Made by a program: the position numbers and the translations under genes. Of a stretch of 64,000 bases of DNA, positions 3,850 through 59,663 are shown piece by piece (within the stretch, counting starts at the first letter, position 1; each line of letters opens with the position of its first letter). This DNA is from Pseudomonas phage vB_PaeM_RyC23_M4LORT: sequence record PP781973.1; one strand, written 5' to 3'. Under the pieces are notes generated by a model. The model had not been told where the DNA came from. It saw only the letters and a list, made by a program, of their open reading frames with translations, and searched no databases.

Positions 3850-6800
3850 CGCCTTCGCCCTCTTTGGAAACTTTCTCTGCTTGCGCTGCCAGCTTTGCTT
3901 TTTCGCGTTCGGTCAAAATCCTCTTGACGGCCTTCACGATGAACATATCGATTCCGCTGAGCTTCCAGCCTTTGATGAGGAACCAAGAGCCTGTCGGCGT
4001 TCCTTCAGCAATCTGCTTTCCGTATTGCAGATATTTTTCAGGCCTAATTCTGAAACGTATCGGCTGATCAACCGAGTCGTCAACACACATGATGTCGAGA
4101 AACTGCGACTGGCCCTTGTACACCGGGTTTTTCCCTTGATCTGCCCTCTTCTTCTGGCGAATCGGTTCGTTCTCATCAGACAGAACTTTTTTCACCATCT
4201 TGACAATGACCAGACCATCATCTCCATCGCGGATATCCCGAATGTTCTGAATGGGGTTTCCGGAAGTTACTCCAACCAGCTCCGGATTGTCATAAGCATG
4301 ACCCCAGAGCGTGTGAGCTTCGTTCAAATCTGCGAATTGAACTTCAGAATTCGACAGACTCGCGGCGACTTTCTCCCAATCCTGAAGCGTCTTCAGGTGG
4401 GTGCCTGCCAGCTCTTTATATTGAGCCTTCAGCTCCTTAAGATCGGCCTTCAACTCCTTCAGATCGGCCTTCAACAGTTTCTCCAGTTCTTTGTCTTGGC
4501 TGATTTTCGCCGAAAGAATCTGGGCTTCCAGAGCTGCTACATCAGCAGCCTTGTCCTCAACATCCTGTGCCGATATCGGGCAATTGGCCAGGGCGATCCT
4601 CGCGGCCTTGACTTCCTCACGAAGACGCAGGAACCGCTCGGCCTTCGCCGGGCCGAAGCCTTTGGCGTTCATGATGCCGCCGATCAGGCGCCCGTCCGCC
4701 ACCACCCAGTTGAGTTCGGAATGCTCCGGGTCCAGGGCCGTATATTCTACGCCTTCTTTGGCCAATTCGCGAAGGATAGACACAGTTTGCTGGTCGTCCT
4801 TCGCCGCCCGAAGGCACGCGGCCGCGTATTCCAGGCGATGATACCGCTTCATGTAGCAAGTCCAGTATGTCACCACGGCATAGCTTACCGAGTGGGAGCG
4901 GTTGAATCCCCAGGCGCCGAATGTCACCATTTCCTGCCAAACTCGGTGAGCGTCTTCCGGGGCGACGCCTATGGTCTTGGCGCCCTCGATGAACAATTCC
5001 CGGCGCTTGTTGAAAAATTCTTCGCCCTTTCGCGCCGACATCGCTTTCCGGATCGCCGACGTTTGTTCCCAGTCGAACTGACCAATGTCCTTAACAATTG
5101 ACATGATCTGTTCTTGGTACAGGAACACGCCATACGTCCCCGACAAATACTGCTCGACCTGCGGAATGGTATAGGTCACAGGCTCGCGGCCGGCCACGCG
5201 CTCGATATACTTGGTTGCCATACCAGAAGACAACGGACCCGGACGGGCGAGCGCCGTGATGTGGTCGATGTTCTCGAACGCGGTGATGTTGATCGCGTTT
5301 GCTACCGAGCGAACGGCCTGCCCTTCGAACTGGAAGATGCCGGACATTTTGTCTTCATTGAGAATGTCCAGAACCGCCTTGTCGTTCAAAGGCAAGTCGT
5401 ACAACTCTTGCGCGGTCACGCAGTTCGCGTCCTGGATGACTCCCAAAGTTCGAAGTCCAAGCGCGTCAATTTTGAGGAGATTCAGATATTCCGAATCGGG
5501 CTTGTCGAGCTGCGCAACGCCTTCGGAAGTCACCGTACAGAAGTCGATGACTTCATCGTTGCAGACCAGGATGCCTGCCGCGTGGACGCCAGAGTGGGAT
5601 GGGTGAATTTCGAGGTCGCCCATGCAGGCGGACGCGATCTCATACTTTTCGCGGAAGTCGCGGCCGGGCTGAGTTTTTTCGAAAGTATCCTCCAATCCTT
5701 TTCCATATCGTTCGTCCGCCGATGTATATTCGATGATCGAGTTTTTGATGTTGTCGGTGTCGTGGAATGGAATGCCGAAGCGTTTTCCGACGTGAGCGAT
5801 AACCGACGCGGCCTTGAGTGTGTTGATGTTACCCAACTTCACAACGTTCCAAGTGCCATACTTCTGCTGGAGATATTCGAACACTAGATAGCGATGGGTA
5901 TCGGCGAAGTCGATATCTATATCGGGAAGATCGGACCGGGAAATGTCGATAAAGCGCTGAAAGAGGAGGCGATGCGGGAGCGGGTCAACCTCTGTAATGC
6001 CAAGGAGATAGCAGACCAAAGAGCCGGCCGAAGAGCCGCGAGCTGGACCGACCAGCATGTGCTTCTTGGCAAACGCGACCAGATCTGCCACGACCAGGAA
6101 GTAGCTGTCGAAATCTTTCAGCTGAATCTGCTTGATCTCTTCTTGGAATCGATCCTCATACTCCTGGGTCCATTCCTTGATGTGGCCGCGACTGAGGCGG
6201 TAGGCTTGCCCCTCGCGAGCCAGAGCGACGATATCACCATCCAAGTGGATCATCGGCGCCTTCGCCAGTTTCACATCCGCCAACCGCTCGACTACCGCAC
6301 GAGTATTGGCTGCGGCAGTATCGAACTCTTCGCGAGTCATGATGTGGCGTAAACGGCTCCACAGCTCCTCTTCGGTGGCGATGTGGCGAAGGCCGACCGA
6401 TTCCCGCACCTTCCAGGCCGACGCGAAATCAGCATGGTCGATGGACGGCATGTCGTTGTAAGAGGTAATTACCACCGGCTTTCCGAATGCCCTGGCCGTC
6501 TCCATAGCGCCGTGCGCGGCGACCATCGACGCGGGATTGATGTCAATGTAGTCGATTCCGGCCAGATCCAGATGGGCATAGGCCTCGCCAGCGAATTTGA
6601 TGACGCCGTCAGCTTCCTGGAATTCTTGCGGAGTCAATCCTTGATTCTGGACCGACTTGGAAGTCAAGCGGTAGAACTTCTTGGTGTCCTTGGCGAGCAC
6701 CCAGGCTTTGAGCTTCAGCTCTTTCTCGCCATCGTCGGCGCATTTGATCGGGATTTCCATGCCGAATCCGCGAGGCAGTTCTGCCTTGGCAGCGGCTTGT

Positions 6801-17008: not shown

Positions 17009-17458
17009 ATGGAACCGAAGAAACCTTCACCAGTAGATGGAGTCATCATGACCAGCCTCGACGTTCTCAGGAAGGCAAAGCCTGAAGCCCAGGACGAGTA
17101 TGCCCTGTCCATGTTCGCAACGGCGATCCGCCAGAAACTGCAGCGCTCCCGCGATAAAGGTCGAGGCGGCTGGATCGACTGCGACGAAGATGTTCTGATC
17201 AACGGATTCGCCGAACATGCGCTGAAGGGAAATGAGAACAACCTCTTGGACCTGGCGACGTTCCTGATGTTCATGTGGGTGCGCGGCATCGACGATGCGA
17301 AGATTCCCCCGGCGCTCGAAAAGGCGCGGCAGCACAAGATCATGGAAGCATGGAGTCGGGTCCACGAAGATGGACTAAACTCCGCCAGAAAGGCGAGTGC
17401 TGCGCGACAGTTCGTGGAAGTGCCTCGACGCAAGGGGCGCCCGGAGCGACTTGCATGA
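17009..17458 (+). CDS. Hypothetical protein (149 aa)
   Basis: ORF; ATGA overlap with the following primase gene. Confidence 0.45.
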   Translation: MEPKKPSPVDGVIMTSLDVLRKAKPEAQDEYALSMFATAIRQKLQRSRDKGRGGWIDCDEDVLINGFAEHALKGNENNLLDLATFLMFMWVRGIDDAKIPPALEKARQHKIMEAWSRVHEDGLNSARKASAARQFVEVPRRKGRPERLA

Positions 17459-18531
17459 AGCCTCACGAAATAAGACTGGCACAGGCCGAAGAGTTCCTGC
17501 GCGAACTCGGCAGAGGGATTCCGGACGACGAACGGGTAATGGTCGGCTACGCTGAAGAGGCCACAGTCCAAACCGACGAGAACGGCCGCAAGCTCAACGC
17601 CGGCTGGTGGCCTGTGCCCTGGAAGGAAGGTAAGTACATCAATTCCAGGTCCAACGCCTATGCCTGTATCTCGTCGTCCATCAAGACGCCTAACCCGAAG
17701 ACCGGCCAGATGCGATACTGGCGCGGCGAAGCCTCTTTCGGCCACGGCCTGGCGTTGATGGTCGATGACATCGGCTCCGGCAAAGGGTCCAAAGGCGACT
17801 TCGACCGCGACGAGTTCCGCGAGCGACTAGAGCCGACCGCGATTGTGGAGACTTCGCCGAACAACTACCAGTTCTGGTATTTCTTCAAAGAGCCGATGTC
17901 CCACATGCTCCAGTTCAAGGCGCTGCTCTATTCGTTCGTGGACCAGGTGCTAAAGAAAGGCGGCGACAACACAGTCAAGGATGTCAGCCGTTATGGTCGC
18001 ATGCCATTCGGCTTCAACAACAAGCGCGGGAAAGACGGCAACTTCAAGTATGCCGACGAAAACGGCAAACCCGAACTGGTGCGCCTGTACAGCGCCGACT
18101 ATTCCAAGCGATACTCACCGGAAGAGATCGCCCAGGCCTTCGGAGTCCGCATCATTATGCCACAGATGAAGAAGGTGGAGATAAATCGCGACGATTGGGT
18201 TTATGACCAAGTATGGCTGAAGTATGCCGAGCACATCTGCACGAAGTACAAGATGGGCGAAGCGGCAGGCGGCCAGGTCCAGCAGAATATGTCCGGCAAA
18301 TACCGCATCCGCTGTCCATGGGGCGACGAGCACACCAACGGCGATCCTTTCGGAGCGTACTTTCGCGGACCGATACCTGGCGCCGAGCACGAATATGTGT
18401 TCGGTTGCGGGCACGATACTTGCCGCAAAGAGCATCGCCGGACTTGGGCGGCCTTCACGGATGAAGTCGTGCTACCCTATATCGTCGAACAATTGGAAAG
18501 AATCAACCGCCGTCATATCGGTGAGGAGTAG
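17455..18531 (+). CDS. PrimPol-type DNA primase (P4 alpha / pRN1 ORF904 N-terminal-like) with a C-terminal Cys/His zinc-binding motif
   Basis: Motifs LMVDDIGSG, TSPNNYQFWYFF, YGRMPFGFNNKRG; C-terminal RCPWGDEH...CGHDTC. Confidence 0.6.
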   Translation: MKPHEIRLAQAEEFLRELGRGIPDDERVMVGYAEEATVQTDENGRKLNAGWWPVPWKEGKYINSRSNAYACISSSIKTPNPKTGQMRYWRGEASFGHGLALMVDDIGSGKGSKGDFDRDEFRERLEPTAIVETSPNNYQFWYFFKEPMSHMLQFKALLYSFVDQVLKKGGDNTVKDVSRYGRMPFGFNNKRGKDGNFKYADENGKPELVRLYSADYSKRYSPEEIAQAFGVRIIMPQMKKVEINRDDWVYDQVWLKYAEHICTKYKMGEAAGGQVQQNMSGKYRIRCPWGDEHTNGDPFGAYFRGPIPGAEHEYVFGCGHDTCRKEHRRTWAAFTDEVVLPYIVEQLERINRRHIGEE

Positions 18532-18869: not shown

Positions 18870-20609
18870 ATGATTATCGACGACGATAACATTCTTGATG
18901 ATGACGAATCGGGGTCCAGTGAGTTCGATCTCACACAGATAGAAGATGCTGGAATGGACCCTTTGATGACCGCCGCAAGTAAAGCGGCCGACGATGCGAT
19001 TGCGAGGAATGAGACTTACCGAGCGCAAAAGGCAGCAAAGTATGCAGAGGCGTATGCGGAACCAGATTTGAAGAAGCGAGCGCGATTGTTGATGCTCGAT
19101 CAGGCCTTTGATCTTCCGGTCAGCCGGCTGGTGAAAGGACCGTTCGACGACTTCATCACCAAGTACAGCTCGACTTCAGACAGCAACTACCTCGCGGTCT
19201 ATGATACGTTGTTCTGTAAGGGCGACGGAACTGTCCCACACCCGCACTTCGACGAGTTTCGCGGCCGGCTGGTGGACCACCGAGGCGTGGCGTTCAACAA
19301 CAAAACCCTCGATCCGATTGACCTGATGGGCGCCCTCGCGGCTGCGGCCTTGGACGATCCCTCGATTAAGAAGACGATTGAGACTTGCTGCGTTTGGGCG
19401 CGTCGATATCGCCGCAACTCGCTGATCGAGACGTTTGAGAAGAAGATACCGGATTGGGACGGCGAAGAGCGGATCGAAACGCTGCTGATCGACTTGTTCA
19501 AACCGTTCGACACCGAGCTTAACCGGATGGTGAGCAAGTATTTCTGGCTGAGCTTGTACTGCCGCATCAACTACCCTGGAATCTCGGCGCCGATCTCGTT
19601 GGCGTTGATTGGTGGGCAGGATGCGGGGAAATCATATTTCGGCTTGCTGATCTGTAAGGAACTGTCCGGTGGGCGCGATCTGGCTCCAGTTCAGCTCGAC
19701 CTGAGCCGACACGACCAGACGCCGTTCCTGCGCAACATCACCGGCAACTCGGTTATTGCGAACGTCGGCGAAATGTCCGGCTTCAAAAAGGGCGACATGG
19801 AACGCATCAAAGAATTCCTGGTGCGATCTTCGGATACATTCGATCAGAAATTCGAGCCTGGCGAAACGATCAAGCGACAATGGATCACCATCATGGACGG
19901 CAACGGATACGATGGACTCCAGCGGGACGACTCCGGCAACCGTCGATTCTATCCGATGTTCGTGGCACAACTTCCCGACGAAGATGGAAAGCCGAACTGG
20001 GTTAAGCCGGGCGATGGTAATGAACCGTTCAAGGTGGACTTCACCGACTTCGGTCGCAAATTCTGGCAAGCGATGGCTGAATGCCGCGCATGGATCGAAG
20101 AGCATGGTGTCGATGGATACCTGGATATGGTGTCGGAAGCGAACCGCGAAGTGCAGAAGTTCTCTATTTCGGAAATGGAGAATGCGCGTGGCGTGGTTCG
20201 TGATGACACGATTGATATGTATCTGATCAACGTGCTGATCAGTTGCGAGTTCGAAGAGATCAAGCCTGGCAGGAATTCAAAGAATCCTGGATGGAGAGTC
20301 AACACCATCGAAATCCTGAAATGGTTCGATGTTCTCGCCAGAAAGAAGCCGATTTCTCGCCACTTAACTCCGCACCTGAAGGCTCTGGGATTTGTTCCGA
20401 ATAAGAATGGCTTGAATGGATGGTGCCTGCCTGTAGATAAGGTTGCACCTGGATGGACCAGAGATATGCACACGACGTTGCCGCCGTTCAATGATGTGCT
20501 TGTATACTTGCTGAGGAAGGTGGATTCTGAGGTGACTGATGAAGAGGCAATGATTCAAATCCGCAAAGTTAAGGCCGAGCGCGCAAGGATATTGGGCGAG
20601 GATTTCTGA
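18870..20609 (+). CDS. VirE/D5-type primase-associated helicase (P-loop NTPase; P4 alpha C-terminal-like)
   Basis: P-loop ALIGGQDAGKSYF, RFYPMFV motif; 579 aa. Confidence 0.75.
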   Translation: MIIDDDNILDDDESGSSEFDLTQIEDAGMDPLMTAASKAADDAIARNETYRAQKAAKYAEAYAEPDLKKRARLLMLDQAFDLPVSRLVKGPFDDFITKYSSTSDSNYLAVYDTLFCKGDGTVPHPHFDEFRGRLVDHRGVAFNNKTLDPIDLMGALAAAALDDPSIKKTIETCCVWARRYRRNSLIETFEKKIPDWDGEERIETLLIDLFKPFDTELNRMVSKYFWLSLYCRINYPGISAPISLALIGGQDAGKSYFGLLICKELSGGRDLAPVQLDLSRHDQTPFLRNITGNSVIANVGEMSGFKKGDMERIKEFLVRSSDTFDQKFEPGETIKRQWITIMDGNGYDGLQRDDSGNRRFYPMFVAQLPDEDGKPNWVKPGDGNEPFKVDFTDFGRKFWQAMAECRAWIEEHGVDGYLDMVSEANREVQKFSISEMENARGVVRDDTIDMYLINVLISCEFEEIKPGRNSKNPGWRVNTIEILKWFDVLARKKPISRHLTPHLKALGFVPNKNGLNGWCLPVDKVAPGWTRDMHTTLPPFNDVLVYLLRKVDSEVTDEEAMIQIRKVKAERARILGEDF

Positions 20610-20634: not shown

Positions 20635-20660
20635 AGGCCGCCTTCGGGCGGTCTTTTCTT
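20635..20660 (+). terminator. Rho-independent terminator (GGCCGCC-TTCG-GGCGGTC followed by TTTTCTTT)
   Basis: GC stem plus T-tract immediately after the helicase gene. Confidence 0.6.
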
Positions 20661-20699
20661 TGGTGAGGCGTACATTCTATTAGGTTGTGGCCGAGTGAG

Positions 20700-21125
20700 A
20701 TTCGGAAGCTATCTGGTAATTAGGATGGGGTGGCGATGGTGTATTATGGAAAGTTCGTGGACGGTGGATCGAGGATTTTGTGTGGTGAGTGGGTGGATTA
20801 TGGAAAATCGACGATTCTGACTGGATTTTTGGGGTCGGCCGCGCCGGTCTTACTGGTAATTACCGAAACCGGGAATTTGGGTCGAGCCTTAGTGCCGCGT
20901 GGGCTTGAAGCGCTTATTCGGATACTTCCCGGTTTCGGATGCAGCCGCAAAAGTATACTACAGCGAAAATCGATTGCACAATCCTAATAGAAAAAATCTA
21001 TCACGGACGTTACCTATCTTTAAAATTAATAAAATTAATAGTAATTTGGTAATTTGGTAAACTTTAGTATTTGAAAGCCTCGCGGCACTAAGCTTGTACA
21101 TATCCCGTCAAGTTTCCGATTCCAG
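20700..21125. repeat. Iteron-bearing intergenic region 1: GGTG(T/G)ATTATGGAAA x2, CTGGTAATTA x2, GGTAATTTGG x2, a 13-bp inverted repeat (20863-20875 / 20926-20938), and inverted plus direct copies of a conserved box
   Basis: Seen directly in the sequence; the box 21073-21125 matches 40913-40965 at about 85% identity. Confidence 0.7.
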
Positions 21126-21409
21126 CCAGCTCGCGGCAGGGTCGCCGGAAACTTCCGGACTTCCAATCCATGGGTCGCGGCAACACCACGGCGGACTAAG
21201 CGGCAGGCACCAAAACTCGACGAACGGAACCGGAAATTTGGGAGCGCGACAGAATCGCTCAGCTGGACATATTTCTAACATTCTATTTAACACTCAATCC
21301 AAACACTCACCACCATCGTCTCCCGCCAACCGCCGACTCGATCCTCACCCACCAGCGGATCGCCCGTATAACATCCTATAACACCACCTAACACTCATTC
21401 ATCATCAAA

Positions 21410-21433
21410 CCCACCCAGACCTACAGCCCACCC
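21410..21433 (-). other. G-quadruplex motif on the minus strand (GGGTGGG-N10-GGGTGGG) inside a CA-rich non-coding tract spanning 21120-21570
   Basis: Plus strand reads CCCACCCAGACCTACAGCCCACCC; strong strand asymmetry and no ORF. Confidence 0.5.
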
Positions 21434-21570
21434 ACAAGCAGCCCATAGACGCGATCCCTGGCCCCATAGTACAATCGCGCCATACTCAGTGTCGCGGCAG
21501 AGCACCAGGCCCATCCACCACCAACGCCACCGCGACGACTCCAGAATCGAACTCAGGGACGCAGCACCAA

Positions 21571-22140
21571 ATGACCAAACACTACAGCCCCGACGATCTA
21601 GTCACGCCACAGGAATTCGCAGACCCGCATTTCGCGGCGATCAACCAAAAGCGATTCGACCTGTACATCGACCTGCGCGTCCAAGGCTACAGCTCCTGGC
21701 GGGTCTTCCGGGCCATCTGGGGTGAGGAGCACATGGACGGTCCCGCCCAGGCTCGCATCTTCGCGATGGAGTCCAACCCGTACTATCGCAAGCAGTTCAA
21801 GGCCAAGTTGAACGCGACCAAAACGTCCGACTTGTGGAATCCAAAGACGGCGCTCCACGAACTCCTCCAAATGGTTCGTGACCCCACCGTCAAGGACTCC
21901 AGTCGTCTGTCGGCCATCAAGGAATTGAACGTTCTGGCTGAAATCACGTTCGTGGACGAGTCTGGCAAGACCAGGATCGGTCGCGGTTTGGCCGACTTCT
22001 ACGCATCAGAAGCCGAGGCTCAGACCGCGACCGTCGCTGCTGCGGCCGAAGCCAATGGCTATGTGCCGGAAGGCGAAGAGGGCGATTTCCCGTCCCCGAC
22101 GCCGGAACCGACCGAGGAAGACCGCGCCAACCCCATTTAG
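21571..22140 (+). CDS. Hypothetical protein (189 aa) with an acidic C-terminus; small-terminase role possible but not supported
   Basis: ORF starting a plus-strand transcription unit after the non-coding tract; no recognisable motif. Confidence 0.45.
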   Translation: MTKHYSPDDLVTPQEFADPHFAAINQKRFDLYIDLRVQGYSSWRVFRAIWGEEHMDGPAQARIFAMESNPYYRKQFKAKLNATKTSDLWNPKTALHELLQMVRDPTVKDSSRLSAIKELNVLAEITFVDESGKTRIGRGLADFYASEAEAQTATVAAAAEANGYVPEGEEGDFPSPTPEPTEEDRANPI

Positions 22141-29149: not shown

Positions 29150-30595
29150 GTGCTCGACCGTCTGTTGCGGCGTCGATATACTCGACCTATTGCTGACACC
29201 GGATTGATTAGAATGTACAAACTCAACCCTGCACTGCGAGCGGTCTGGCGAACTCGCGCCCGTTACAAAGTCATTTATGGCGGCCGGGCGTCTTCGAAGT
29301 CACACGACGCAGGCGGTATCGCCGTTTACCTCGCGGCCAACTATAGACTCAAGTTCCTCTGTGCTCGCCAGTTTCAGAACCGCATCAGCGAATCGGTCTA
29401 CACGTTGATCAAGGACAAGATTGAGAATTCTGAGTACAACGGCGAGTTCATTTTCACGAAGAACTCGATCAAGCACAAGATGACCGGATCAGAATTCCTA
29501 TTCTATGGGATCGCCCGTAACCTGTCGGAAATCAAGTCTACCGAAGGCATCGACATTCTCTGGCTTGAGGAAGCTCACTACCTGACCCAGGAGCAGTGGG
29601 AAGTCATCGAGCCGACCATCCGGAAAGAGAACTCAGAAATCTGGATCATCTTCAATCCGAACGAAGTGACAGACTTCGTGTATCAGAACTTCGTGGTGAA
29701 GCCACCCAAAGACGCCTTCGTCAAGATGATCAACTGGAACGAAAATCCGTTTCTCAGTGAGACGATGCTCAAGGTCATCCACGAAGCTTATGAGCGCGAC
29801 AAGGACCAGGCCGAGCACATTTATGGCGGGATTCCGAAGACTGGTGGCGACAAATCCGTCATCAATCTCAAGTTCATTCTTGCGGCCATCGACGCCCACA
29901 AGAAACTCGGCTGGGAGCCGGCCGGATCGAAGCGCATCGGCTTCGACGTTGCGGACGACGGCGAGGATGCGAACGCAACTACGCTCATGCACGGCAACGT
30001 CATTATGGAAGTGGACGAATGGGACGGCCTGGAAGATGAACTGCTCAAGTCGTCCAGCCGCGTTTACAACCTGGCGAAGATGAAAGGCGCCTCGGTCACT
30101 TATGACTCCATCGGTGTCGGCGCTCACGTCGGATCGAAGTTCGCCGAGTTGAACGATGCCAGTCCCGACTTCAAACTGATCTATGATCCATTCAACGCGG
30201 GCGGCGCTGTCGATAAGCCTGATGATATCTACATGAAGCTGCCGCACACGACGATCAAGAACAAAGACCACTTCAGCAACATCAAGGCGCAGAAGTGGGA
30301 AGAAGTCGCGACCCGATTCCGGAAGACTTATGAAGCGGTTGAGCATGGAAAGGTTTATCCCTTCGACGAATTGATTTCGATCAACTCTGAAACGATTCAC
30401 CCGGACAAACTAAATCAACTGTGTATCGAACTTTCGTCGCCGCGCAAAGACCTGGACATGAACGGCCGGTTCAAAGTCGAGTCCAAGAAGGATATGCGCG
30501 AGAAACGCAAGATCAAGTCGCCGAACATCGCTGACTCGGTGATTATGTCGGCCATTCTGCCGATCCGGAAGCCCAAAGGTTTCTTCGACTTCTAA
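29150..30595 (+). CDS. terL: Terminase large subunit (PBSX/XtmB-type); start uncertain between 29150 and 29212
   Basis: Walker A YGGRASSKSH, Walker B ILWLEEAH, C-terminal RNase H-like nuclease (IGFDVADDGED...). Confidence 0.85.
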   Translation: MLDRLLRRRYTRPIADTGLIRMYKLNPALRAVWRTRARYKVIYGGRASSKSHDAGGIAVYLAANYRLKFLCARQFQNRISESVYTLIKDKIENSEYNGEFIFTKNSIKHKMTGSEFLFYGIARNLSEIKSTEGIDILWLEEAHYLTQEQWEVIEPTIRKENSEIWIIFNPNEVTDFVYQNFVVKPPKDAFVKMINWNENPFLSETMLKVIHEAYERDKDQAEHIYGGIPKTGGDKSVINLKFILAAIDAHKKLGWEPAGSKRIGFDVADDGEDANATTLMHGNVIMEVDEWDGLEDELLKSSSRVYNLAKMKGASVTYDSIGVGAHVGSKFAELNDASPDFKLIYDPFNAGGAVDKPDDIYMKLPHTTIKNKDHFSNIKAQKWEEVATRFRKTYEAVEHGKVYPFDELISINSETIHPDKLNQLCIELSSPRKDLDMNGRFKVESKKDMREKRKIKSPNIADSVIMSAILPIRKPKGFFDF

Positions 30596-37118: not shown

Positions 37119-39416
37119 ATGTTTAAACTTTCCTGGATATTCGGGCGCAAAAAGGATAATGCTGCCTGTTCTGAATCGGCGCCGGAGAAAGTCGCAAAAA
37201 TCCCTCAACACGATCCGCTCGACCCAATGATCAAGCTGGGAAGGATTCGCGGCTGGAACGTCGAGCCGGAGAAAGCCCCGGTAATTCGTAGCGTGAAAGA
37301 TTTCCTGGAGCCGGGCCTATCTGTAGCAATGGATAGTGCGTATGGTGATGGACCAACTCCGGCCGCGAAGGCTGCTGCGGGCGGCCAGAATCCCTATGTC
37401 GTCCCGACTATGTTGCAGGACTGGTACAATTCCCAAGGGTTCATCGGATACCAAGCTTGCGCAATCATTTCCCAACACTGGTTGGTGGACAAAGCTTGTT
37501 CCATGTCTGGGGAAGACGCAGCACGGAACGGATGGGAACTCAAATCGGACGGCAGGAAGCTATCCGATGAACAAAGCGCGCTGATCGCCCGGCGCGACAT
37601 GGAGTTTCGCGTCAAAGACAACCTTGTCGAACTCAACAGATTCAAGAACGTTTTCGGCGTTCGTATCGCGCTGTTCGTTGTGGAGTCTGACGATCCGGAC
37701 TACTACGAAAAGCCGTTCAATCCGGATGGAATCACGCCCGGCTCCTACAAGGGAATCTCCCAGATCGATCCATACTGGGCAATGCCGCAGCTCACTGCTG
37801 GCTCGACGGCAGATCCGTCTTCCGAACATTTCTATGAGCCGGATTTCTGGATTATCAGCGGTAAAAAATATCACCGCAGCCACCTAGTGGTGGTTCGTGG
37901 ACCGCAGCCGCCAGATATCCTGAAGCCTACATACATCTTCGGCGGTATCCCGCTCACCCAGAGAATCTATGAGCGCGTGTATGCAGCGGAACGGACGGCG
38001 AACGAAGCCCCGCTGCTTGCCATGTCGAAGCGAACCAGCACCATCCACGTTGACGTGGAGAAGGCCATCGCGAACGAAGAGGCCTTCAACGCTCGCCTGG
38101 CGTTCTGGATCGCCAACCGTGATAACCACGGCGTGAAAGTTCTGGGAATTGACGAAGACATGGAGCAGTTCGACACGAACCTGGCCGACTTCGACAGCAT
38201 CATCATGAACCAATATCAGCTGGTCGCGGCCATCGCCAAGACTCCAGCCACGAAGCTCCTCGGCACTTCTCCAAAAGGATTCAATGCCACTGGTGAGCAC
38301 GAAACGATTTCTTATCACGAAGAACTGGAGTCCATTCAAGAGCACATATTCGACCCACTTCTTGAACGCCACTATTTGCTTCTGGCGAAGTCGGAAGAAA
38401 TTGATGTGCAGCTGGAAATCGTCTGGAATCCTGTGGACTCCACGTCCAGCCAGCAACAAGCCGAATTGAACAATAAGAAAGCCGCGACCGATGAAATCTA
38501 CATCAACTCTGGCGTTGTGTCTCCGGATGAAGTTCGCGAGCGTCTGCGTGACGATCCGCGTTCCGGCTACAACCGACTCACCGACGATCAGGCGGAAACC
38601 GAACCGGGCATGTCTCCGGAAAACCTGGCCGAATTCGAGAAGGCCGGTGCACAGTCGGCCAAGGCGAAAGGCGAAGCCGAGCGAGCCGAAGCCCAGGCGG
38701 GCGCCGTAGAGGGCGCAGGCGGCCCGGTTCCCGCCGCTCCACGCGGGACTAAGCCTCTCGCGAAAGCGGCCGAGGAAGGGGCCAGCGAGGCCGCTGAACC
38801 GCCGTCGAGGCCGGACCCCAAGGCCGAGCTGCGGAACTTGTTGGTCGATCTTTTGTCGAAGCTCCAAGACCTGGACGACATTAAGGCGCCGGACGGCGTA
38901 GACATAGAGCACAATGATGCGCCTGGCTTAAAGCGCACATCCAAACCTGGCGTGTCTGGTATGGAGCCTTCGGTGTTTTCGTCCAACCGCATCGTCGGGC
39001 CTCGTGATCATTCGGAACTCCAGAGAATCAAGGTGAATGGAATAACCACCTTGATCGAAAATCCGCGCGGAAGCATTCGACAAGGCAAGGATGGGAGTTG
39101 GCGAGTTCAGATGAAACACCACTACGGGTTCATCAAGGGAACGAAAGGCGCTGATGGGGATGAAGTCGATTGCTTCGTCGGTCCGAATCTGGGATCCAAA
39201 CGGGTCTTCGTCGTCAACCAAGTGAACAAGGAAGGTCAGTTTGACGAGCACAAGTGTATGCTCGGCTTCAACAACATCAACGATGCGAAGTCTGGATATC
39301 TGTCCTGCTTCCGTCCGGGCTGGGATGGTCTCGGCTCCATCCATGAAGTTGACCTGCCCGCTTTCCGTCGCTGGCTGGCGAACGGCGACACCACCAAACC
39401 GTTCGGGGGCGAGTGA
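37119..39416 (+). CDS. Portal protein (DUF1073-like) with a low-complexity linker and a C-terminal inorganic-pyrophosphatase-like domain
   Basis: 765 aa, first structural gene; C-terminus HHYGFIKGTKGADGDEVDCFVGP matches the family I PPase signature D-[SGDN]-D-[PE]-[LIVMF]-D-[LIVMGAC]. Confidence 0.65.
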   Translation: MFKLSWIFGRKKDNAACSESAPEKVAKIPQHDPLDPMIKLGRIRGWNVEPEKAPVIRSVKDFLEPGLSVAMDSAYGDGPTPAAKAAAGGQNPYVVPTMLQDWYNSQGFIGYQACAIISQHWLVDKACSMSGEDAARNGWELKSDGRKLSDEQSALIARRDMEFRVKDNLVELNRFKNVFGVRIALFVVESDDPDYYEKPFNPDGITPGSYKGISQIDPYWAMPQLTAGSTADPSSEHFYEPDFWIISGKKYHRSHLVVVRGPQPPDILKPTYIFGGIPLTQRIYERVYAAERTANEAPLLAMSKRTSTIHVDVEKAIANEEAFNARLAFWIANRDNHGVKVLGIDEDMEQFDTNLADFDSIIMNQYQLVAAIAKTPATKLLGTSPKGFNATGEHETISYHEELESIQEHIFDPLLERHYLLLAKSEEIDVQLEIVWNPVDSTSSQQQAELNNKKAATDEIYINSGVVSPDEVRERLRDDPRSGYNRLTDDQAETEPGMSPENLAEFEKAGAQSAKAKGEAERAEAQAGAVEGAGGPVPAAPRGTKPLAKAAEEGASEAAEPPSRPDPKAELRNLLVDLLSKLQDLDDIKAPDGVDIEHNDAPGLKRTSKPGVSGMEPSVFSSNRIVGPRDHSELQRIKVNGITTLIENPRGSIRQGKDGSWRVQMKHHYGFIKGTKGADGDEVDCFVGPNLGSKRVFVVNQVNKEGQFDEHKCMLGFNNINDAKSGYLSCFRPGWDGLGSIHEVDLPAFRRWLANGDTTKPFGGE

Positions 39417-40639: not shown

Positions 40640-40995
40640 TAAAAATTCTAGTCCGGATAGCCGCAAGTTACCGTTTACGGAAAATAGCAGTAATTTGGAA
40701 ATCCTACTGCCGCGAGGCTTTAACAGAGCCAGTTCCTAATTTCCGATTTAGCCGCATGCTTCAAAAGTATATAGCCTGGGAAATTAGAAGTAACGTTCCA
40801 ATAGAATTCATCTATAAGTAACGTTATAATATAACGTCAATCTATATGCTCTAGACGTATTGAAATTCAATTTTTAATCGGTAAATTGGTAATTTGAATT
40901 AGTTTAGGAGTTGAAAGCCTCGCGGCAGTAGGCTTAGACAAATCCCGTCAAGTTTCCGAGACCAAATTACCGGATTTTCGCGGCTGAGGAAACTG
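40640..40995. repeat. Iteron-bearing intergenic region 2: inverted copy (40694-40712) and direct copy (40914-40932) of the 19-bp box AAAGCCTCGCGGCAGTAGG, GGTAA(A)TTTGG repeats, CTGGTAATTA, and the shared element CCCGTCAAGTTTCCGA
   Basis: Same architecture as region 1 (20700-21125); seen directly. Confidence 0.7.
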
Positions 40996-41127
40996 GTAAT
41001 TAGATCACAATACAAATTATAATGTAAGTTAACAGTCACGGCTACATCTAATTATTGTTCCGCTTATTTACCCTTAGATGTACTGCGTATATAATACAGC
41101 CATAGTCCACGACTCTTCGAATTAACG

Positions 41128-42561
41128 ATGGCAAAGTCGAAAAGAAAAATTGACGAAAATGGATATATGACCATAGAGGGCTGCCCGATCAGCTCTTATG
41201 GCGTTTTCCAATATTCTGCTGGTCAACTCGGTCTTCCGGGCGATCCGACGCGGATTGTCAACGTATATCGCCCGGAGTCTGCCGTCAGCGATCCGGAGTA
41301 CATCGAATCTCTGAAGAATCTCCCGTTGATCGACGAGCATGAGATGCTGTCGGGATTCGACGATGATGACGATAGCGTGGCCCCCGAAGACAAAGGGGTG
41401 GAGGGCATCATCACATCCAACGCTTACTACGAAGCCCCATGGGCACGCGGCGATATCCGCATCTATTCCCGCAACATGCAGAATCAGCTGGAAAGGGGCA
41501 AAGAAGACCTGTCCCTAGGCTATAGTTGCCGCTACACTGAGCAACCCGGCATCTGGAACGGGACGCCTTATGAAGTCGTCCAGGACAAGATGCGCGGCAA
41601 CCACATCGCCCTGGTAAAAGAGGGTCGTGTGCCGGGGGCCAGAGTATTGGATGGTCTGTGTTTTGACCATCTCAGTTTTGATTTCAGACCATCCGATGAG
41701 GGTAATGAAATGAGTCTCAAGAAAGCCAAGCGGAAGCCCCCTGTCCAGCGCGTAGGGCAAGCTGCTGACTCGGCGGTCGAAGAGTTGCGCGCCCTGTGGC
41801 CGAAGCTATCTGCGTCTGTCCAGAAGTTCCTGGGCGAAGAAGAGCAGGAGCCGGAGCATCAGGAAGGCGCAGCTCCGGCCGAACCGACCGACAGCGAGCA
41901 CCTGACCGAGCATCCGACTCTGGAAGGTGCTCAGAAGGATGACGAAGAGCAGGAAGAGGAGCCTTCCGTTGTCGATCCGGCCGTGGCCGCCGTCGAGCCG
42001 GAGCATCAAGAAGGTGCCGCATCCGAAATGTCCGGTGAAGGCGAAGTCGCCGAACTGATCTCTCAAGTCAAGGCCATTCTGGCTCGACTGGAGGGCACGG
42101 TAGCCGAAGGGGCGGACGAAGAGCATGGCGAAGGTCAAGATGTCGTCGAGGGCTTGGAAGAGCAGAGCAGCCTCAGCGGCGCGCAAACCGCCAGCGACGA
42201 TGGTGGTGAGGGCAAGGATAACAGCGAGGAACTTCCTGAAATGGCACAGAAGAACGCGCAAGATGCTGCAATTCGCGGTCTCTATCGCGACATTGCTGCT
42301 AAAGATCGCCTCTACAAGCGTCTTAGCTCCGTGGTTGGTGCGTTCGATCACCGAGCTATGGACTCGGCTGAAGTCGCTGTTTACGGCGTGAAAAAGCTGA
42401 ACATCAGCTGTGCGAAGGGCCAGGAAGCTCTGGCGCTCGACATGTACCTGAAAGGCGTCGAAGCCTCGCGCGGCGCGGCCAGCCGTCAATCGAAAGCCCA
42501 GGATTCGGCCGGTTCTGCTCCGCAGTGCGCCGAGCTGGACAGCTACCTGAAGGGGGAGTAA
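41128..42561 (+). CDS. Putative prohead protease / scaffolding fusion (Mu gpI-like N-terminus, acidic C-terminal scaffold-like region)
   Basis: N-terminal about 190 aa with a GNHIALVKEGR-type motif; the following ~250 aa are Glu/Asp-rich low complexity; sits between the Mu F-like gene and the capsid gene. Confidence 0.5.
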   Translation: MAKSKRKIDENGYMTIEGCPISSYGVFQYSAGQLGLPGDPTRIVNVYRPESAVSDPEYIESLKNLPLIDEHEMLSGFDDDDDSVAPEDKGVEGIITSNAYYEAPWARGDIRIYSRNMQNQLERGKEDLSLGYSCRYTEQPGIWNGTPYEVVQDKMRGNHIALVKEGRVPGARVLDGLCFDHLSFDFRPSDEGNEMSLKKAKRKPPVQRVGQAADSAVEELRALWPKLSASVQKFLGEEEQEPEHQEGAAPAEPTDSEHLTEHPTLEGAQKDDEEQEEEPSVVDPAVAAVEPEHQEGAASEMSGEGEVAELISQVKAILARLEGTVAEGADEEHGEGQDVVEGLEEQSSLSGAQTASDDGGEGKDNSEELPEMAQKNAQDAAIRGLYRDIAAKDRLYKRLSSVVGAFDHRAMDSAEVAVYGVKKLNISCAKGQEALALDMYLKGVEASRGAASRQSKAQDSAGSAPQCAELDSYLKGE

Positions 42562-58152: not shown

Positions 58153-59663
58153 CTCTGCCTGCGTACAATTCGGACATCCAACAAGCTCTGAAATGGCTCC
58201 ATAACCAGGCGCCTGGAATCACCGGCCTGATCCAGAGAAAGGCGCAATGGTATGACAGATTCAGCCGCCAATTCTGGGCCAACTGGGAGCGCGACGTTTT
58301 CCACTTGAAAACTGCCAACCCGTTCGGCCTTATGGTTTGGTGCATCATCCTCGGCACGCCTTCGAAAGGGTTCGGCCTTTATCCAAAAAACAGTTCTTGG
58401 GCATTCGGTCGGCTACGCCAGAACTTCATCTATAGCGGTACACAAGTTCCGCCACCGGCAGACGCATCGCCTGGCGGCAACTTCTACGGTGGCGGCAATG
58501 CCGAAATTCTCAACTTGGACGAAATCAGGAAAGTGCTTCAGCTAAGATATGTAGCGCTGATTTCTAACGGCTCGATTGCATATGTCAATCGCATGCTTCG
58601 TTACATATTCAATGATGATGAGCCATGGGACGAGGCGACCGGTCTGTACTTCTATCTCATGGACTCAACCGGCGAGAATGGCCCTGTGGAGAACTTGGCG
58701 ATATATCGGAAAGATTGGGAAGGTATGGTGCTGTTGTCCAGTTCGCCCAGAACGAACCATGTGCTGACATCGACCCCTGCCAGCGACGCCGATTGGCCGG
58801 GAGTCGATCCGGCCGCGAGCGGTATTCCGGTAACGGTCGAAACGGCGTCCGCTACGGCCCCGGACGGCTCCGCTACGGTGTGCAAGCTTACTAAGCCGGC
58901 CGGGAGTACTGCTTACGTCTCCGCGCCGATAGATGGGCCGCTGGGGTCCGGTAGCACTGTAACGTTCTCGTTCTTCGCGAAAGCCGGCTCCACCCGTTTC
59001 ATTGCAATTCAGTCGGCTGCCGATTTCCCCAGTCGAGCCGATGCCGTTTTCGACCTGGATTCCGGGAACGTGATCAGCGATCAGATGTTGGACAGCAGCG
59101 TGGTAAGCGCCCGAATGATTCGTCTGGAAAATGGCTGGTGGCGTTGCGTTCTCACGACCAAGACCGTCAGCTCTTCGTTCCGCGCTGCTTACGTCGCTCC
59201 GGCAGAAACCAACTTCAGCTGGATTGATTCGAATTCCAGCGCGGCGATTGACGTGCTTATATGGGGCGCTCAGATCGAACTGGGTGATACTCCAACTGGA
59301 TACTTGGAGACTACCGGGGCGCCCGTAACCATCACCGATTATGTTTTGCAGAACGCCCAGACCGGAACAGTCAAGTTCACACAGCCCCTTCCGACCGGAG
59401 TAGAAGCGTATTGGACTGGAGACTGGAAAGGCGGGTCTGCGACCGAGCCGGCCAGATTCGCAGTAGGGGATGGGACTCAAGATGCATTCAATTTGTCCAG
59501 CCCTGCATACATCGGCCTACCCACTAGTGGGGCGTTCAAGCTAGAATACAGAGTTGGTCCGGCGCTTAATTTGTCGCCGCAATTGATCAACCTCATGAAT
59601 GACCGGGCGGTCGGTATCATGCCGACTTGCGCCGGTTGCGATGTAAAAGTCATTCAGGAGTAA
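58149..59663 (+). CDS. Baseplate wedge / tail-fibre-proximal protein (P2 I-like, DUF2612-like N-terminus)
   Basis: 504 aa; overlaps the J gene by 4 nt. Confidence 0.55.
   Translation: MTLPAYNSDIQQALKWLHNQAPGITGLIQRKAQWYDRFSRQFWANWERDVFHLKTANPFGLMVWCIILGTPSKGFGLYPKNSSWAFGRLRQNFIYSGTQVPPPADASPGGNFYGGGNAEILNLDEIRKVLQLRYVALISNGSIAYVNRMLRYIFNDDEPWDEATGLYFYLMDSTGENGPVENLAIYRKDWEGMVLLSSSPRTNHVLTSTPASDADWPGVDPAASGIPVTVETASATAPDGSATVCKLTKPAGSTAYVSAPIDGPLGSGSTVTFSFFAKAGSTRFIAIQSAADFPSRADAVFDLDSGNVISDQMLDSSVVSARMIRLENGWWRCVLTTKTVSSSFRAAYVAPAETNFSWIDSNSSAAIDVLIWGAQIELGDTPTGYLETTGAPVTITDYVLQNAQTGTVKFTQPLPTGVEAYWTGDWKGGSATEPARFAVGDGTQDAFNLSSPAYIGLPTSGAFKLEYRVGPALNLSPQLINLMNDRAVGIMPTCAGCDVKVIQE

What the first reader, a model, noticed from the sequence alone, without database searches (positions are those of the whole stretch)
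20700..21125. Two distant intergenic regions share an iteron / inverted-box architecture: candidate ori/crr-like pair
Regions 20700-21125 and 40640-40995 each contain three shared elements. First, a box AAAGCC(T/C)(C/A)CGCGGCA(C/G)TA(A/G)G present once inverted and once direct, about 190-220 bp apart (20885-20903 / 21076-21093 and 40694-40712 / 40914-40932). Second, AT-rich DNA between the boxes carrying GGTAA(A)TTTGG and CTGGTAATTA short direct repeats. Third, a nearly identical ~65-bp stretch after the direct box ending in CCCGTCAAGTTTCCGA (21061-21125 vs 40901-40965, about 85% identity). Region 1 lies immediately downstream of the P4-alpha-like primase and helicase genes. P4 alpha protein binds iterons at two separated sites, ori and crr, so by analogy these may be paired replication origins or replication enhancers. 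They could instead be binding sites for a phage regulator that controls the two rightward operons beginning at 21571 and 41128.
Basis: partly seen in the sequence, partly recalled or inferred. Interest (0 to 1): 0.75.

Follow-up and report, generated by a model that had tools for sequence, protein, structure and literature searches.

The report
Paired iteron modules at ori/pac region
Two distant non-coding stretches of this Pseudomonas PB1-like phage are copies of one protein-binding module; the first lies between the replication helicase gene and the small-terminase gene, where DNA packaging starts, and is probably also a replication origin.

Summary
The window is a Pbunavirus (PB1-like) genome. 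A 19-nt box, AAAGCCTCGCGGCA[C/G]TA[A/G]G, occurs exactly four times. It forms two inverted pairs (20888-20906/21074-21092 and 40703-40721/40914-40932), each around a 32-34% GC core carrying GGTAATT(T/A)G repeats.

The two regions are paralogous over about 330 bp. Box number and spacing (185-186 and 211 bp) are invariant in five other Pbunaviruses. The same two-locus design, with different short iterons, recurs in E. coli (Wifcevirus) and Burkholderia (BcepF1) relatives.

Region 1 lies between a SaPI-Rep1-like helicase gene and terS (PDB 7UXE). Published read-end data place the packaging start at 20970|20971, between the boxes. Published 14-1 transcript mapping places a sigma70 terS start on the first base of the direct box.

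Position and architecture match a SaPI/P4-type pri-rep-ori module. My best reading (about 0.42) is therefore initiator-bound origin modules, with region 1 doubling as pac and terS control region and region 2 as a second origin or enhancer.

Terminase recognition is the main rival (about 0.3). No binding or replication data exist.

The parts
17275..18531 (+). RepB-type (AEP) primase gene, the 'pri' of the module
   Evidence: Pfam PF16793, E 1.8e-59. Weak PDB match to RSF1010 RepB'.
18870..20609 (+). VapE-like SF3 helicase, homologue of the SaPI1 initiator-helicase Rep1, the 'rep' of the module
   Evidence: PF05272. phmmer vs 7PDS, E 1e-14. AF2 model pLDDT 89.6; Foldseek top hit 7PDS, E 1.8e-17, about 496 columns.
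20635..20662 (+). Intrinsic terminator after the helicase gene
   Evidence: Scan. The same sequence is listed as a terminator in JG024 Table 3. Invariant in 10 phages.
20663..20887 (.). G/T-rich left arm of region 1. It is highly variable between Pbunavirus lineages and carries CTGGTAATTA at 20713 and 20853. A perfect 13-bp inverted repeat (20863-20875 / 20926-20938) brackets the inverted box.
   Evidence: G 37%, C 13%.
20888..20906 (-). Region 1 inverted box (AAGCCCACGCGGCACTAAG)
   Evidence: The core is kept even where the flanks are replaced.
20907..21073 (.). Region 1 AT-rich core (33.5% GC). Positions 20957-21060 are almost invariant in 10 Pbunaviruses.
20970..20971 (+). Reported packaging start / fixed DNA end (AAAAT|CGATTGC)
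   Evidence: Pa204 and Ab28 records are cut exactly here. Essoh 2015 reported fixed read ends. The JG024 PhageTerm site 59,376 maps to 20971.
21040..21070 (+). Tandem GTAATTTGG iterons plus TAGTAT. This is the promoter region of the distal terS promoter (14-1 P040).
21074..21092 (+). Region 1 direct box. Its first base is the mapped P040 transcription start. The 46-nt unit 21074-21119 is shared with region 2.
21120..21570 (+). C-rich, G-poor right arm. It is the long terS leader and carries further TCGCGGCA copies (21131, 21175, 21492), the palindrome CCGGAAACTTCCGG (21146-21159) and the proximal sigma70 promoter (21446-21475, start about 21482).
21571..22140 (+). Small terminase (TerS)
   Evidence: Matches PDB 7UXE (E217 TerS) over its full length, E 6.7e-125.
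40703..40721 (-). Region 2 inverted box, preceded by GTAATTTGG (40689-40697)
40722..40913 (.). Region 2 AT-rich core (31.8% GC) with AAGTAACGTT repeats and GGTAAATTGGTAATTTG (40880-40897). No transcript start was mapped here.
40914..40932 (+). Region 2 direct box. The unit 40914-40959 is shared with region 1. It is followed by TCGCGGCT (40978) and two GGTAATT copies (40963-, 40995+).
41067..41102 (+). Sigma70 promoter of the head protease-scaffold-capsid operon (14-1 P014; start about 41102). It lies outside the paralogous module.
41128..42561 (+). Head maturation protease gene, first gene downstream of region 2
   Evidence: PHROG 3778, E 6.5e-228.

Best explanation
Both regions are copies of one cis-acting, protein-binding module. 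The module is an AT-rich core flanked by an inverted pair of boxes. The box core, (C/T)GCGGC(A), is shared across the whole phage family. Lineage-specific short iterons accompany it (GGTAATT(T/A)G in Pbunavirus).

Region 1 is the control region between the replication helicase gene and terS.

Shown by published data mapped here:
- The headful packaging series starts at 20970|20971, between the boxes.
- terS is transcribed from two sigma70 promoters. The distal one is built from the iterons and starts on the first base of the direct box.

Inferred:
- The boxes and iterons are bound by the SaPI-Rep1-like helicase, which would then open the AT-rich core. That makes region 1 a pri-rep-ori type origin that overlaps pac and the terS promoter.
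- Region 2, upstream of the head operon, is a second origin or a crr-like auxiliary binding site for the same protein.
- Binding at +1 of the distal terS promoter would also couple terS expression to origin occupancy.
For: - Four boxes only, and highly non-random. The regions are paralogous over about 330 bp.
- Box number and spacing (185-186 and 211 bp) are invariant in 14-1, JG024, F8, KPP12 and datas. This holds even though the region 1 left arm is replaced between lineages while the box core is kept.
- The gene order pri (PF16793) -> Rep1-like SF3 helicase -> module matches SaPIs. In SaPIs the ori lies immediately downstream of rep, with iterons on each side of an AT-rich region pointing in opposite directions (PMC9371898).
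- The helicase -> long AT-cored gap with inverted GCCGC on the left and direct GCGGC on the right is also found in:
  - Wifcevirus SP13;
  - Carpasinavirus XcP1, where 2.5 kb of ORFs separate it from terS;
  - Aeromonas phage Gekk3-15;
  - Serratia MTx;
  - BcepF1 and a 67-kb metagenomic phage contig;
  - integrative elements of Burkholderia gladioli and Cupriavidus pauculus and a related metagenomic contig, with 4 inverted and 6 direct copies in B. gladioli.
- A paralogous second module upstream of the prohead protease gene is present in Pbunavirus, SP13 and BcepF1. Each genus has its own short iteron: ATCATCCGTA in SP13 and TAACTAAG in BcepF1. This implies a co-evolving DNA-binding protein.
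- Region 2 has no mapped DNA end and no mapped transcript start. A function shared by both regions is therefore neither cutting nor promoter activity.
Against: - No binding, melting or replication-initiation data exist for any of these phages.
- The only experimental landmarks in region 1 are a packaging end and promoters, not an origin.
- The cut lies at a similar distance from the boxes in three genera: 71/110, 91/102 and 86/103 bp. That fits a packaging role for the boxes at least as well.
- Cumulative GC skew has its minima near 5 and 15 kb of the window, in the replication-gene block, not at either region (Banzai paper). Skew in phages mostly follows transcription, so this is weak.
- The GCGGC core is the same across genera whose helicase C-terminal regions are poorly conserved. 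SaPI iterons are island-specific.
- XcP1 and Gekk3-15 show no clear second module.
- The winged-helix nature of the helicase C-terminus was not tested at domain level.
Confidence: 0.42

Rival explanations
1. The boxes and TCGCGGCA repeats are the recognition elements of the terminase, either TerS or a TerS-containing complex. Region 1 would be a pac site of the SPP1 pacL-pacC-pacR, P1 pac or lambda cosB type. Bound protein on both sides would position the TerL cut in the AT-rich core. Occupancy at +7 and +11 of the two terS promoters would autoregulate terS. Region 2 would be a non-cut second loading, synapsis or regulatory site.
For: - terS starts 600 bp downstream of the end.
- The fixed end at 20970|20971 comes from independent sources. 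SCUT-S1 PhageTerm also placed Pac in an AT-rich region.
- The DTR left boundary of SP13 and MTx falls in the homologous AT core, at nearly the same distances from the inverted and direct GCGGC elements.
- Direct TCGCGGCA copies fill the interval between the cut and terS.
- Of 40 mapped 14-1 transcript starts, only the two terS ones have GCGGC within +35.
- A TerS homologue follows the module in 8 of 9 lineages examined.
Against: - A review reports that E217 TerS showed no appreciable DNA binding in vitro (PMC9611059). The primary paper could not be read.
- Region 2 has the same geometry, but no DNA end is reported there and no terS lies nearby.
- In XcP1 the module stays with the helicase gene, 2.5 kb from terS.
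- The Banzai study found no PhageTerm peaks at all.
- Inverted arrays on both sides of an AT core are more typical of SF3 initiator loading.
Confidence: 0.3
2. The boxes are operators of a phage transcription factor that co-regulates terS and the head protease-scaffold-capsid operon. It could act, for example, by looping between the two boxes of each region.
For: - The direct box of region 1 starts at +1 of promoter P040, and the iterons form its -35/-10 region.
- Both regions precede rightward late operons.
- The strictly conserved box-to-box spacing suits looping.
- Region 2 is always just upstream of the protease gene in three genera.
Against: - Three of the four boxes are not near any mapped start. 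The head promoter P014 lies about 190 bp downstream of region 2's direct box.
- The P040-like -10 is destroyed in region 2 of all Pbunaviruses (TAGGAG, TAGAAG).
- The module persists in integrative elements that have no head operon.
- No candidate regulator was identified.
Confidence: 0.13
3. The element acts at the RNA or single-strand level. Options are a 5' stem-loop on the terS mRNA, a long-range duplex between the two boxes serving as an RNase III site in read-through transcripts, or RSF1010 ssi-like hairpins for the RepB-type primase.
For: - The region 2 arms are 95% complementary over 22 nt.
- The box has weak internal dyad symmetry (AAGCCT-N9-AGGCTT).
- F8 carries matching changes in both region 2 boxes.
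- The phage encodes a RepB-type primase.
Against: - Single-strand folds of nine box units from three genera give weak, inconsistent hairpins. Eight have z-scores between -0.9 and +1.2; only the SP13 region 2 inverted unit folds well (z -2.4).
- In the JG024 lineage the two region 1 boxes differ at the variable positions, so pairing is not maintained.
- No Rfam family matches.
- Only one of the four boxes is at a transcript 5' end.
Confidence: 0.04
4. The similarity is a passive duplication or a MITE-like insertion with no shared function.
For: Terminal inverted repeats of about 22 nt flank a short AT-rich segment.
Against: - Homology extends beyond the inverted repeats on both sides, and there are no target-site duplications.
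- There are exactly two copies at syntenic positions in all Pbunaviruses, with invariant spacing.
- The two-locus design is kept in Wifcevirus and BcepF1 with different sequences.
- Region 2 is 88-99% conserved.
Confidence: 0.03

Closest known systems
SaPI replication module (pri - rep - ori) of Staphylococcus aureus pathogenicity islands
   Same: - A primase gene is followed by a self-loading SF3 initiator-helicase gene, then a non-coding ori immediately 3' of rep.
- The ori has short repeats on both sides of an AT-rich region, pointing in opposite directions (PMC9371898).
- The window's helicase is a sequence and fold homologue of SaPI1 Rep1.
- Related small integrative elements with the same helicase -> module -> terS order exist in Burkholderiaceae.
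   Different: - The host here is a virulent 66-kb myovirus.
- The primase is RepB/AEP-type.
- The repeats are two-tiered: a family-wide GCGGC box plus lineage-specific 9-10-mers.
- The same region holds the packaging start and terS promoters.
- A second paralogous copy lies 20 kb away.
- Rep binding has not been shown.
Satellite phage P4 ori / crr, bound by the alpha primase-helicase (from my own knowledge)
   Same: Two separated cis sites carry the same repeats. They are presumed to be bound by the C-terminal domain of an SF3 primase-helicase encoded nearby. One site would act as origin and the other as auxiliary.
   Different: - The iteron sequence is unrelated to P4's.
- As I recall, crr is built of direct repeats, whereas both modules here are inverted pairs around an AT core.
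- Primase and helicase are separate proteins here.
- The helicase's nearest solved relative is SaPI Rep1, not P4 alpha.
Packaging-initiation sites next to terS: SPP1 pacL-pacC-pacR, P1 pac, lambda cosN-cosB-Nu1 (from my own knowledge)
   Same: The cut site sits in a bendable AT-rich segment flanked by repeated protein-binding elements. Repeats fill the interval between the cut and the terS start codon. A sub-molar fixed end is typical of a headful series.
   Different: - A second, uncut paralogous module exists.
- The module stays with the helicase gene when terS is displaced (XcP1).
- TerS of the near-identical phage E217 is reported not to bind DNA in vitro.
SPP1 oriL / oriR, two distant origins bound by one initiator (from my own knowledge)
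   Same: One phage genome carries two widely separated copies of the same repeat plus AT-rich design. One copy is next to the initiator gene and the other is among late genes.
   Different: The initiator family differs (G38P is not an SF3 helicase). Nothing has been shown experimentally here.

Membership tests
SaPI/P4-type pri-rep-ori origin | Primase gene upstream of the initiator-helicase gene | tested here: met
   17275-18531 is PF16793 RepB_primase. 18870-20609 is a VapE-like helicase. The same order is seen in L026, Gekk3-15 and BcepF1.
SaPI/P4-type pri-rep-ori origin | Initiator is a self-loading SF3 helicase related to SaPI Rep | tested here: met
   phmmer vs 7PDS, E 1e-14. Foldseek vs 7PDS, E 1.8e-17, TM 0.48/0.60. 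Model pLDDT 89.6.
SaPI/P4-type pri-rep-ori origin | C-terminal winged-helix domain that reads the iterons | tested here: inconclusive
   The model has an alpha/beta C-terminal region (residues about 446-525) and the alignment to Rep1 spans most of the chain. No domain-level comparison was made.
SaPI/P4-type pri-rep-ori origin | ori immediately downstream of the rep ORF | tested here: met
   Region 1 begins right after the terminator that follows the stop codon at 20609. The same position is found in the other lineages examined.
SaPI/P4-type pri-rep-ori origin | Repeats on both sides of a central AT-rich region, pointing in opposite directions | tested here: met
   B. gladioli has 4 inverted and 6 direct copies. 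In SP13 the iterons flank both cores.
SaPI/P4-type pri-rep-ori origin | Initiator binds and melts the site, and replication starts there | not testable with these tools
   Needs EMSA or footprinting, a plasmid ori assay and marker-frequency mapping.
P4 ori/crr pair specifically | P4-type iteron sequence, and a crr made of direct repeat units | tested here: not met
   The box and iteron sequences differ from P4's, and both modules are inverted pairs. The P4 definition is recalled from memory, not checked in a paper.
Headful pac site / terminase recognition region | A physical end of the packaging series maps inside the element | tested here: met
   Met for region 1 only: record starts and published read-end analyses converge on 20970|20971. 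No end is reported for region 2.
Headful pac site / terminase recognition region | Lies in or next to the terS gene | tested here: met
   terS (7UXE homologue) starts at 21571. Not met for region 2.
Headful pac site / terminase recognition region | TerS binds the repeats | not testable with these tools
   A review cites no appreciable DNA binding by E217 TerS in vitro. The DNA that was tested is unknown to me.
Host sigma70 promoter | Mapped primary transcript start with upstream -10/-35 | tested here: met
   Met for 14-1 P040 (window 21074), P041 (21482) and P014 (41102). Not met for the region 2 boxes or for either inverted box.
Sigma54 promoter (GG-N10-GC) | -24 GG and -12 GC, with the start about 12 nt downstream | tested here: not met
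   The box reads GG-N10-GT or GG-N10-AG (direct reading). The mapped start is at the first base of the box, not downstream of it.
RSF1010 ssi-type priming hairpins | Stable, conserved single-strand hairpin on each strand | tested here: not met
   Single-strand DNA folds are weak and inconsistent. Eight of nine units have z between -0.9 and +1.2; one SP13 unit reaches -2.4.
Known RNA families (Rfam 15) | Covariance-model match | tested here: not met
   No match at E<=1 in either region.
MITE-like mobile element | Target-site duplication, many dispersed copies, homology ending at the inverted repeats | tested here: not met
   Two syntenic copies only. Homology extends past the repeats, and there are no duplications.

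The most novel reading that the evidence does not exclude
One nucleoprotein complex, assembled on the box/iteron module, serves as both replication origin and packaging-initiation site. Terminase would cut at a fixed distance (about 70-90 bp and 100-110 bp) from initiator-bound boxes. Packaging of these phages and of their terS-carrying satellites would then be licensed by origin firing. The second module upstream of the head operon would be a replication-only or expression-coupling copy. This would be a replication-packaging coupling device conserved across Pbunavirus, Wifcevirus, Myosmarvirus and Bcepfunavirus.
Probability: 0.18. Interest if true: 0.75.

Novelty: new variant of a known kind. 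Interest (0 to 1): 0.5.

Why it matters
PB1-like phages are among the most used therapeutic Pseudomonas phages. Their origin of replication is unknown, and their packaging mode has been disputed for 15 years.

This analysis gives base-level coordinates for a conserved cis-element pair. It accounts for the recurring fixed end at 20970|20971. It links that end to a SaPI-type rep-ori module and to terS transcription. It also shows the design is shared by several related genera and by small integrative, satellite-like elements.

The result gives concrete targets for phage engineering. It indicates where not to insert payloads and what a minimal replicon or packaging signal might be. The question of origin versus pac becomes directly testable with proteins that have already been purified (E217 TerS).

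Tried and rejected
- Sigma54 promoter reading of the box: the -12 element is wrong and the mapped start is at the first base of the box.
- ssi-like single-strand hairpins or a 5' mRNA stem-loop: no stable or conserved fold.
- Long-range RNA duplex or RNase III site: the region 1 boxes do not co-vary in the JG024 lineage.
- Known RNA families: none.
- MITE or passive duplication: rejected on synteny, lack of target-site duplications and cross-genus conservation.
- Protein-coding explanation for region 1: ORFs annotated across it in JG024 and KPP12 are not conserved, indels break the frames, and there is no PHROG hit.
- Genome-wide over-representation of CGCGGC[A/T]: it is real relative to a naive base-composition estimate of my own, but in the window it follows the coding strand. 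It is probably a codon or dipeptide effect, so only the non-coding clusters were used.
- GC skew as an origin locator: the minima lie in the replication-gene block and track transcription direction, so it is uninformative.

Dead ends:
- The E217 terminase paper is not held.
- The published supplement of the transcript study is not held. The bioRxiv version was used instead.
- The TerS word-index search gave only 7 hits.
- The TerS alignment was too divergent for locus scanning.
- The single genome-contig scan returned only the query locus.
- P0084 had no contig on record.
- No Carpasinavirus record is opened at a determined terminus.
- The SCUT-S1 paper gives no Pac coordinate.

Full report
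**Identity of the window.** The window is a Pbunavirus (PB1-like Pseudomonas aeruginosa myovirus). It is 99.8% identical to vB_PaeM_P1420 around region 1, and about 300 related records exist.

- ORF 21571-22140 is the small terminase. It matches the E217 TerS structure 7UXE over its full length (E 6.7e-125).
- ORF 41128-42561 is the head maturation protease. TerL is 29150-30595 and the portal is 37119-39416.
- Upstream of region 1 lie a RepB-type primase (17275-18531, PF16793) and a VapE-like helicase (18870-20609, PF05272).

- With AAAGCCTCGCGGCA[C/G]TA[A/G]G there are exactly four matches at <=3 mismatches. They are 20888-20906(-), 21074-21092(+), 40703-40721(-) and 40914-40932(+). The expectation is 0.06.
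- The arms extend to 22 nt, at 82% and 95% complementarity.
- The DNA between the boxes is 33.5% and 31.8% GC in a 55.5% GC genome.
- GGTAATTWG is strongly clustered. Sixteen of 26 matches, and all five exact ones, lie in the two regions.
- The 65-bp stretch is 83% identical.
- The two regions are in fact homologous over about 330 bp. When the four box units are aligned in one orientation they share a roughly 47-nt unit: box, then AAAT(T)CCCG, then TTTCCG(W)A.

**Conservation within the genus.** I aligned both regions from ten and nine Pbunaviruses spanning 78-99% identity.

- The left arm of region 1 (20660-20950) exists in two very different versions, yet the inverted-box core is retained.
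- 20957-21095 is almost invariant.
- Region 2 is 88-99% conserved.
- In 14-1, JG024, F8, KPP12 and datas there are exactly four boxes, with spacings of 185-186 bp and 211 bp.
- ORFs annotated across region 1 in some records are not conserved.

**Published landmarks mapped onto the window.**

(a) A DNA end.
- Several GenBank records begin at window 20971. Pa204 and Ab28 are cut exactly at 20970|20971, with no repeat.
- Essoh et al. [quoted passage not shown]
- Ipoutcha et al. 2024 give a putative JG024 packaging site at 59,376 (PMC10913387). This maps to window 20971.
- Guo et al. [quoted passage not shown]
- The Banzai study saw no peaks and concluded plain headful packaging.

(b) Transcript starts. 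The ONT-cappable-seq table for 14-1 (bioRxiv 10.1101/2023.10.13.562163) lists three relevant starts.
- P040 (59,399, sigma70) maps to window 21074, the first base of the direct box. Its promoter is made of the GTAATTTGG repeats plus TAGTAT. Its transcript runs through terS.
- P041 (59,807) maps to 21482 and is also a terS promoter.
- P014 (13,257) maps to 41102. It is the head-operon promoter and lies about 190 bp downstream of region 2's direct box.
- No start is listed at the region 2 boxes or at either inverted box.
- Of 40 starts I could map, only P040 and P041 have GCGGC within +35.

**Relatives in other genera.**

- E. coli phage SP13 (Wifcevirus). It has a 3,899-bp direct terminal repeat. 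The left boundary of that repeat lies in an AT-rich core about 360 bp upstream of its terS. The core is flanked by oppositely oriented copies of a different iteron (ATCATCCGTA) and by inverted and direct (C/T)GCGGC elements. A second, paralogous AT-rich core with the same iterons lies just upstream of the protease gene. With one isolated exception about 370 bp upstream of the second core, the iteron occurs only at these two loci in the 38 kb examined.
- Serratia phage MTx. Its PhageTerm-annotated terminal repeat begins 368 bp after the helicase stop and 376 bp before the first gene.
- Geometry of the end. It lies 71/110 bp (Pbunavirus), 91/102 bp (SP13) and 86/103 bp (MTx) from the nearest inverted and direct GCGGC elements.
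- Burkholderia phage BcepF1. It also has two paralogous modules, one between helicase and terS and one upstream of the prohead protease, with its own iteron (TAACTAAG). Its terS homologue is unannotated and sits on the minus strand.
- Xanthomonas XcP1 keeps the module right after the helicase gene, although 2.5 kb of small ORFs separate it from terS. I saw no clear second module.
- Aeromonas Gekk3-15 has the first module only.
- Integrative elements. Helicase homologues in Burkholderia gladioli and Cupriavidus pauculus sit in small integrase-bearing elements. Each is followed by the same kind of gap and then a TerS homologue. The B. gladioli gap has four inverted TGCCGCG copies, an AT core and six direct CGCGGC copies. 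The C. pauculus TerS homologue is 39% identical (E 2e-38). A metagenomic relative of the C. pauculus element and a 67-kb phage contig show the same order.

**Nature of the helicase.** It matches PDB 7PDS by sequence (E 1e-14). A confident AlphaFold model (pLDDT 89.6) has 7PDS as its best fold match (E 1.8e-17). NrS-1, ASFV and poxvirus D5/E5 primase-helicases follow. 7PDS is the SaPI1 Rep1-DNA complex.

The paper describing it states three things (PMC9371898).
- SaPIs carry pri, then rep, then an ori immediately downstream of rep.
- The iterons lie half on each side of an AT-rich region and point in opposite directions.
- A C-terminal winged helix of Rep reads them.

Region 1 matches this description feature for feature.

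**Interpretation.** A function shared by both modules cannot be promoter activity, because only one of four boxes is at a transcript start. It cannot be terminase cutting, because an end is reported only in region 1. It is very probably binding of a phage protein that co-evolves with the short iterons.

Position and architecture point to the Rep-like helicase. That makes region 1 an origin that overlaps the packaging start and the terS promoters, and region 2 a second origin or auxiliary site. I put this at about 0.42.

The main rival is terminase recognition, at about 0.30. Two things favour it: the conserved geometry of the cut relative to the boxes, and the TCGCGGCA copies leading to terS. 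Three things weaken it: region 2, XcP1, and the reported lack of DNA binding by E217 TerS.

An operator model gets about 0.13. RNA or single-strand models and passive duplication are largely excluded. The two leading models are not mutually exclusive. The most novel reading is that one complex licenses both processes.

**Comparison with the literature found.** The JG024 paper noted unexplained AT-rich boxes and intergenic motifs, and predicted a sigma70 promoter inside region 2. The 14-1 data do not confirm that promoter. The SCUT-S1 paper speculated about an origin at the Pac site.

In the papers I could search, I found no description of:
- the four-box architecture;
- the paralogy of the two regions;
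- its conservation in other genera and in integrative elements;
- the coincidence of the P040 start with the box.

I rate it a new variant of known kinds (iteron origin next to rep; pac next to terS), of moderate interest.

Noticed in passing
window 21349-21356; also L017 (Gekk3-15 region 1 right arm, two copies), L029 about 178-185 (MTx), L021 about 8118, L025: CCACCAGC, the complement of the E. coli Chi sequence GCTGGTGG, recurs in the C-rich right arm a few hundred bp to the right of the packaging end. In this orientation a RecBCD enzyme entering at the left DNA end would meet it as Chi. In the enterobacterial phage MTx it lies about 185 bp from the terminal-repeat boundary. It could be chance in CCACC-rich DNA.
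   Followed up: partly
window 20663-20887 versus 21120-21570: Region 1 has strong strand asymmetry. The left arm is G 37% / C 13%. The right arm is C 38% / G 19%, reaching C 43% / G 9% at 21280-21450. Transcripts leaving the core in either direction would be C-rich and G-poor, like Rho-utilisation sites. The same asymmetry is seen in Gekk3-15, MTx, XcP1 and the integrative elements. XcP1 has an 11-bp tandem repeat (ACCCCAGAACA) there.
   Followed up: partly
L027 (BcepF1, EF153632) about 20022-20520, minus strand: A clear TerS homologue (tblastn E down to 5e-25) is not annotated. The record instead annotates small plus-strand ORFs (BcepF1.059-061) over it.
   Followed up: partly
L019 (Burkholderia gladioli CADEYA010000010, 295232-309028), L021 (Cupriavidus pauculus PJRP01000009), L025: These are small integrase-bearing elements that carry only the helicase, the iteron/AT-rich gap, a TerS homologue and a few small genes. 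They look like phage satellites that bring their own replication and packaging-specificity module.
   Followed up: partly
L002 (phage PADD, PP931176) 5692-6784, equivalent to window about 21490: The PADD record has a roughly 1.1-kb insert in the terS leader, flanked by a 77-bp duplication. From reading the ORF translations it contains ambiguous bases and seems to encode fragments resembling bacterial PabB-like and MalT/LuxR-like proteins; no homology search was run. Its 'small terminase' CDS is a 369-aa fusion. It is probably a chimeric assembly or host DNA.
   Followed up: partly
window 20863-20875 and 20926-20938: A perfect 13-bp inverted repeat (CCGAAACCGGGAA / TTCCCGGTTTCGG) brackets the region 1 inverted box with a 50-nt loop. 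It is specific to the lineage of this window (also 14-1, Pa204, PADD).
   Followed up: no
window, whole; also SP13, XcP1, Gekk3-15: CGCGGC[A/T] occurs about 2-6 times more often than my own base-composition estimate predicts, throughout these genomes. In the window its orientation follows the coding strand. It is probably a codon or dipeptide effect, but this was not analysed by reading frame.
   Followed up: partly
window 21146-21159: The palindrome CCGGAAACTTCCGG, just after the second TCGCGGCA, is invariant in all ten Pbunaviruses aligned. It is a candidate site for a dimeric protein.
   Followed up: no
window 40785-40834: AAGTAACGTT is repeated 28 bp apart in the region 2 core, with a third ATAACGTC. 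Region 1 has a single ACGTTAC at the aligned place. The JG024 authors predicted a sigma70 promoter here, but the 14-1 data show no transcript start.
   Followed up: partly
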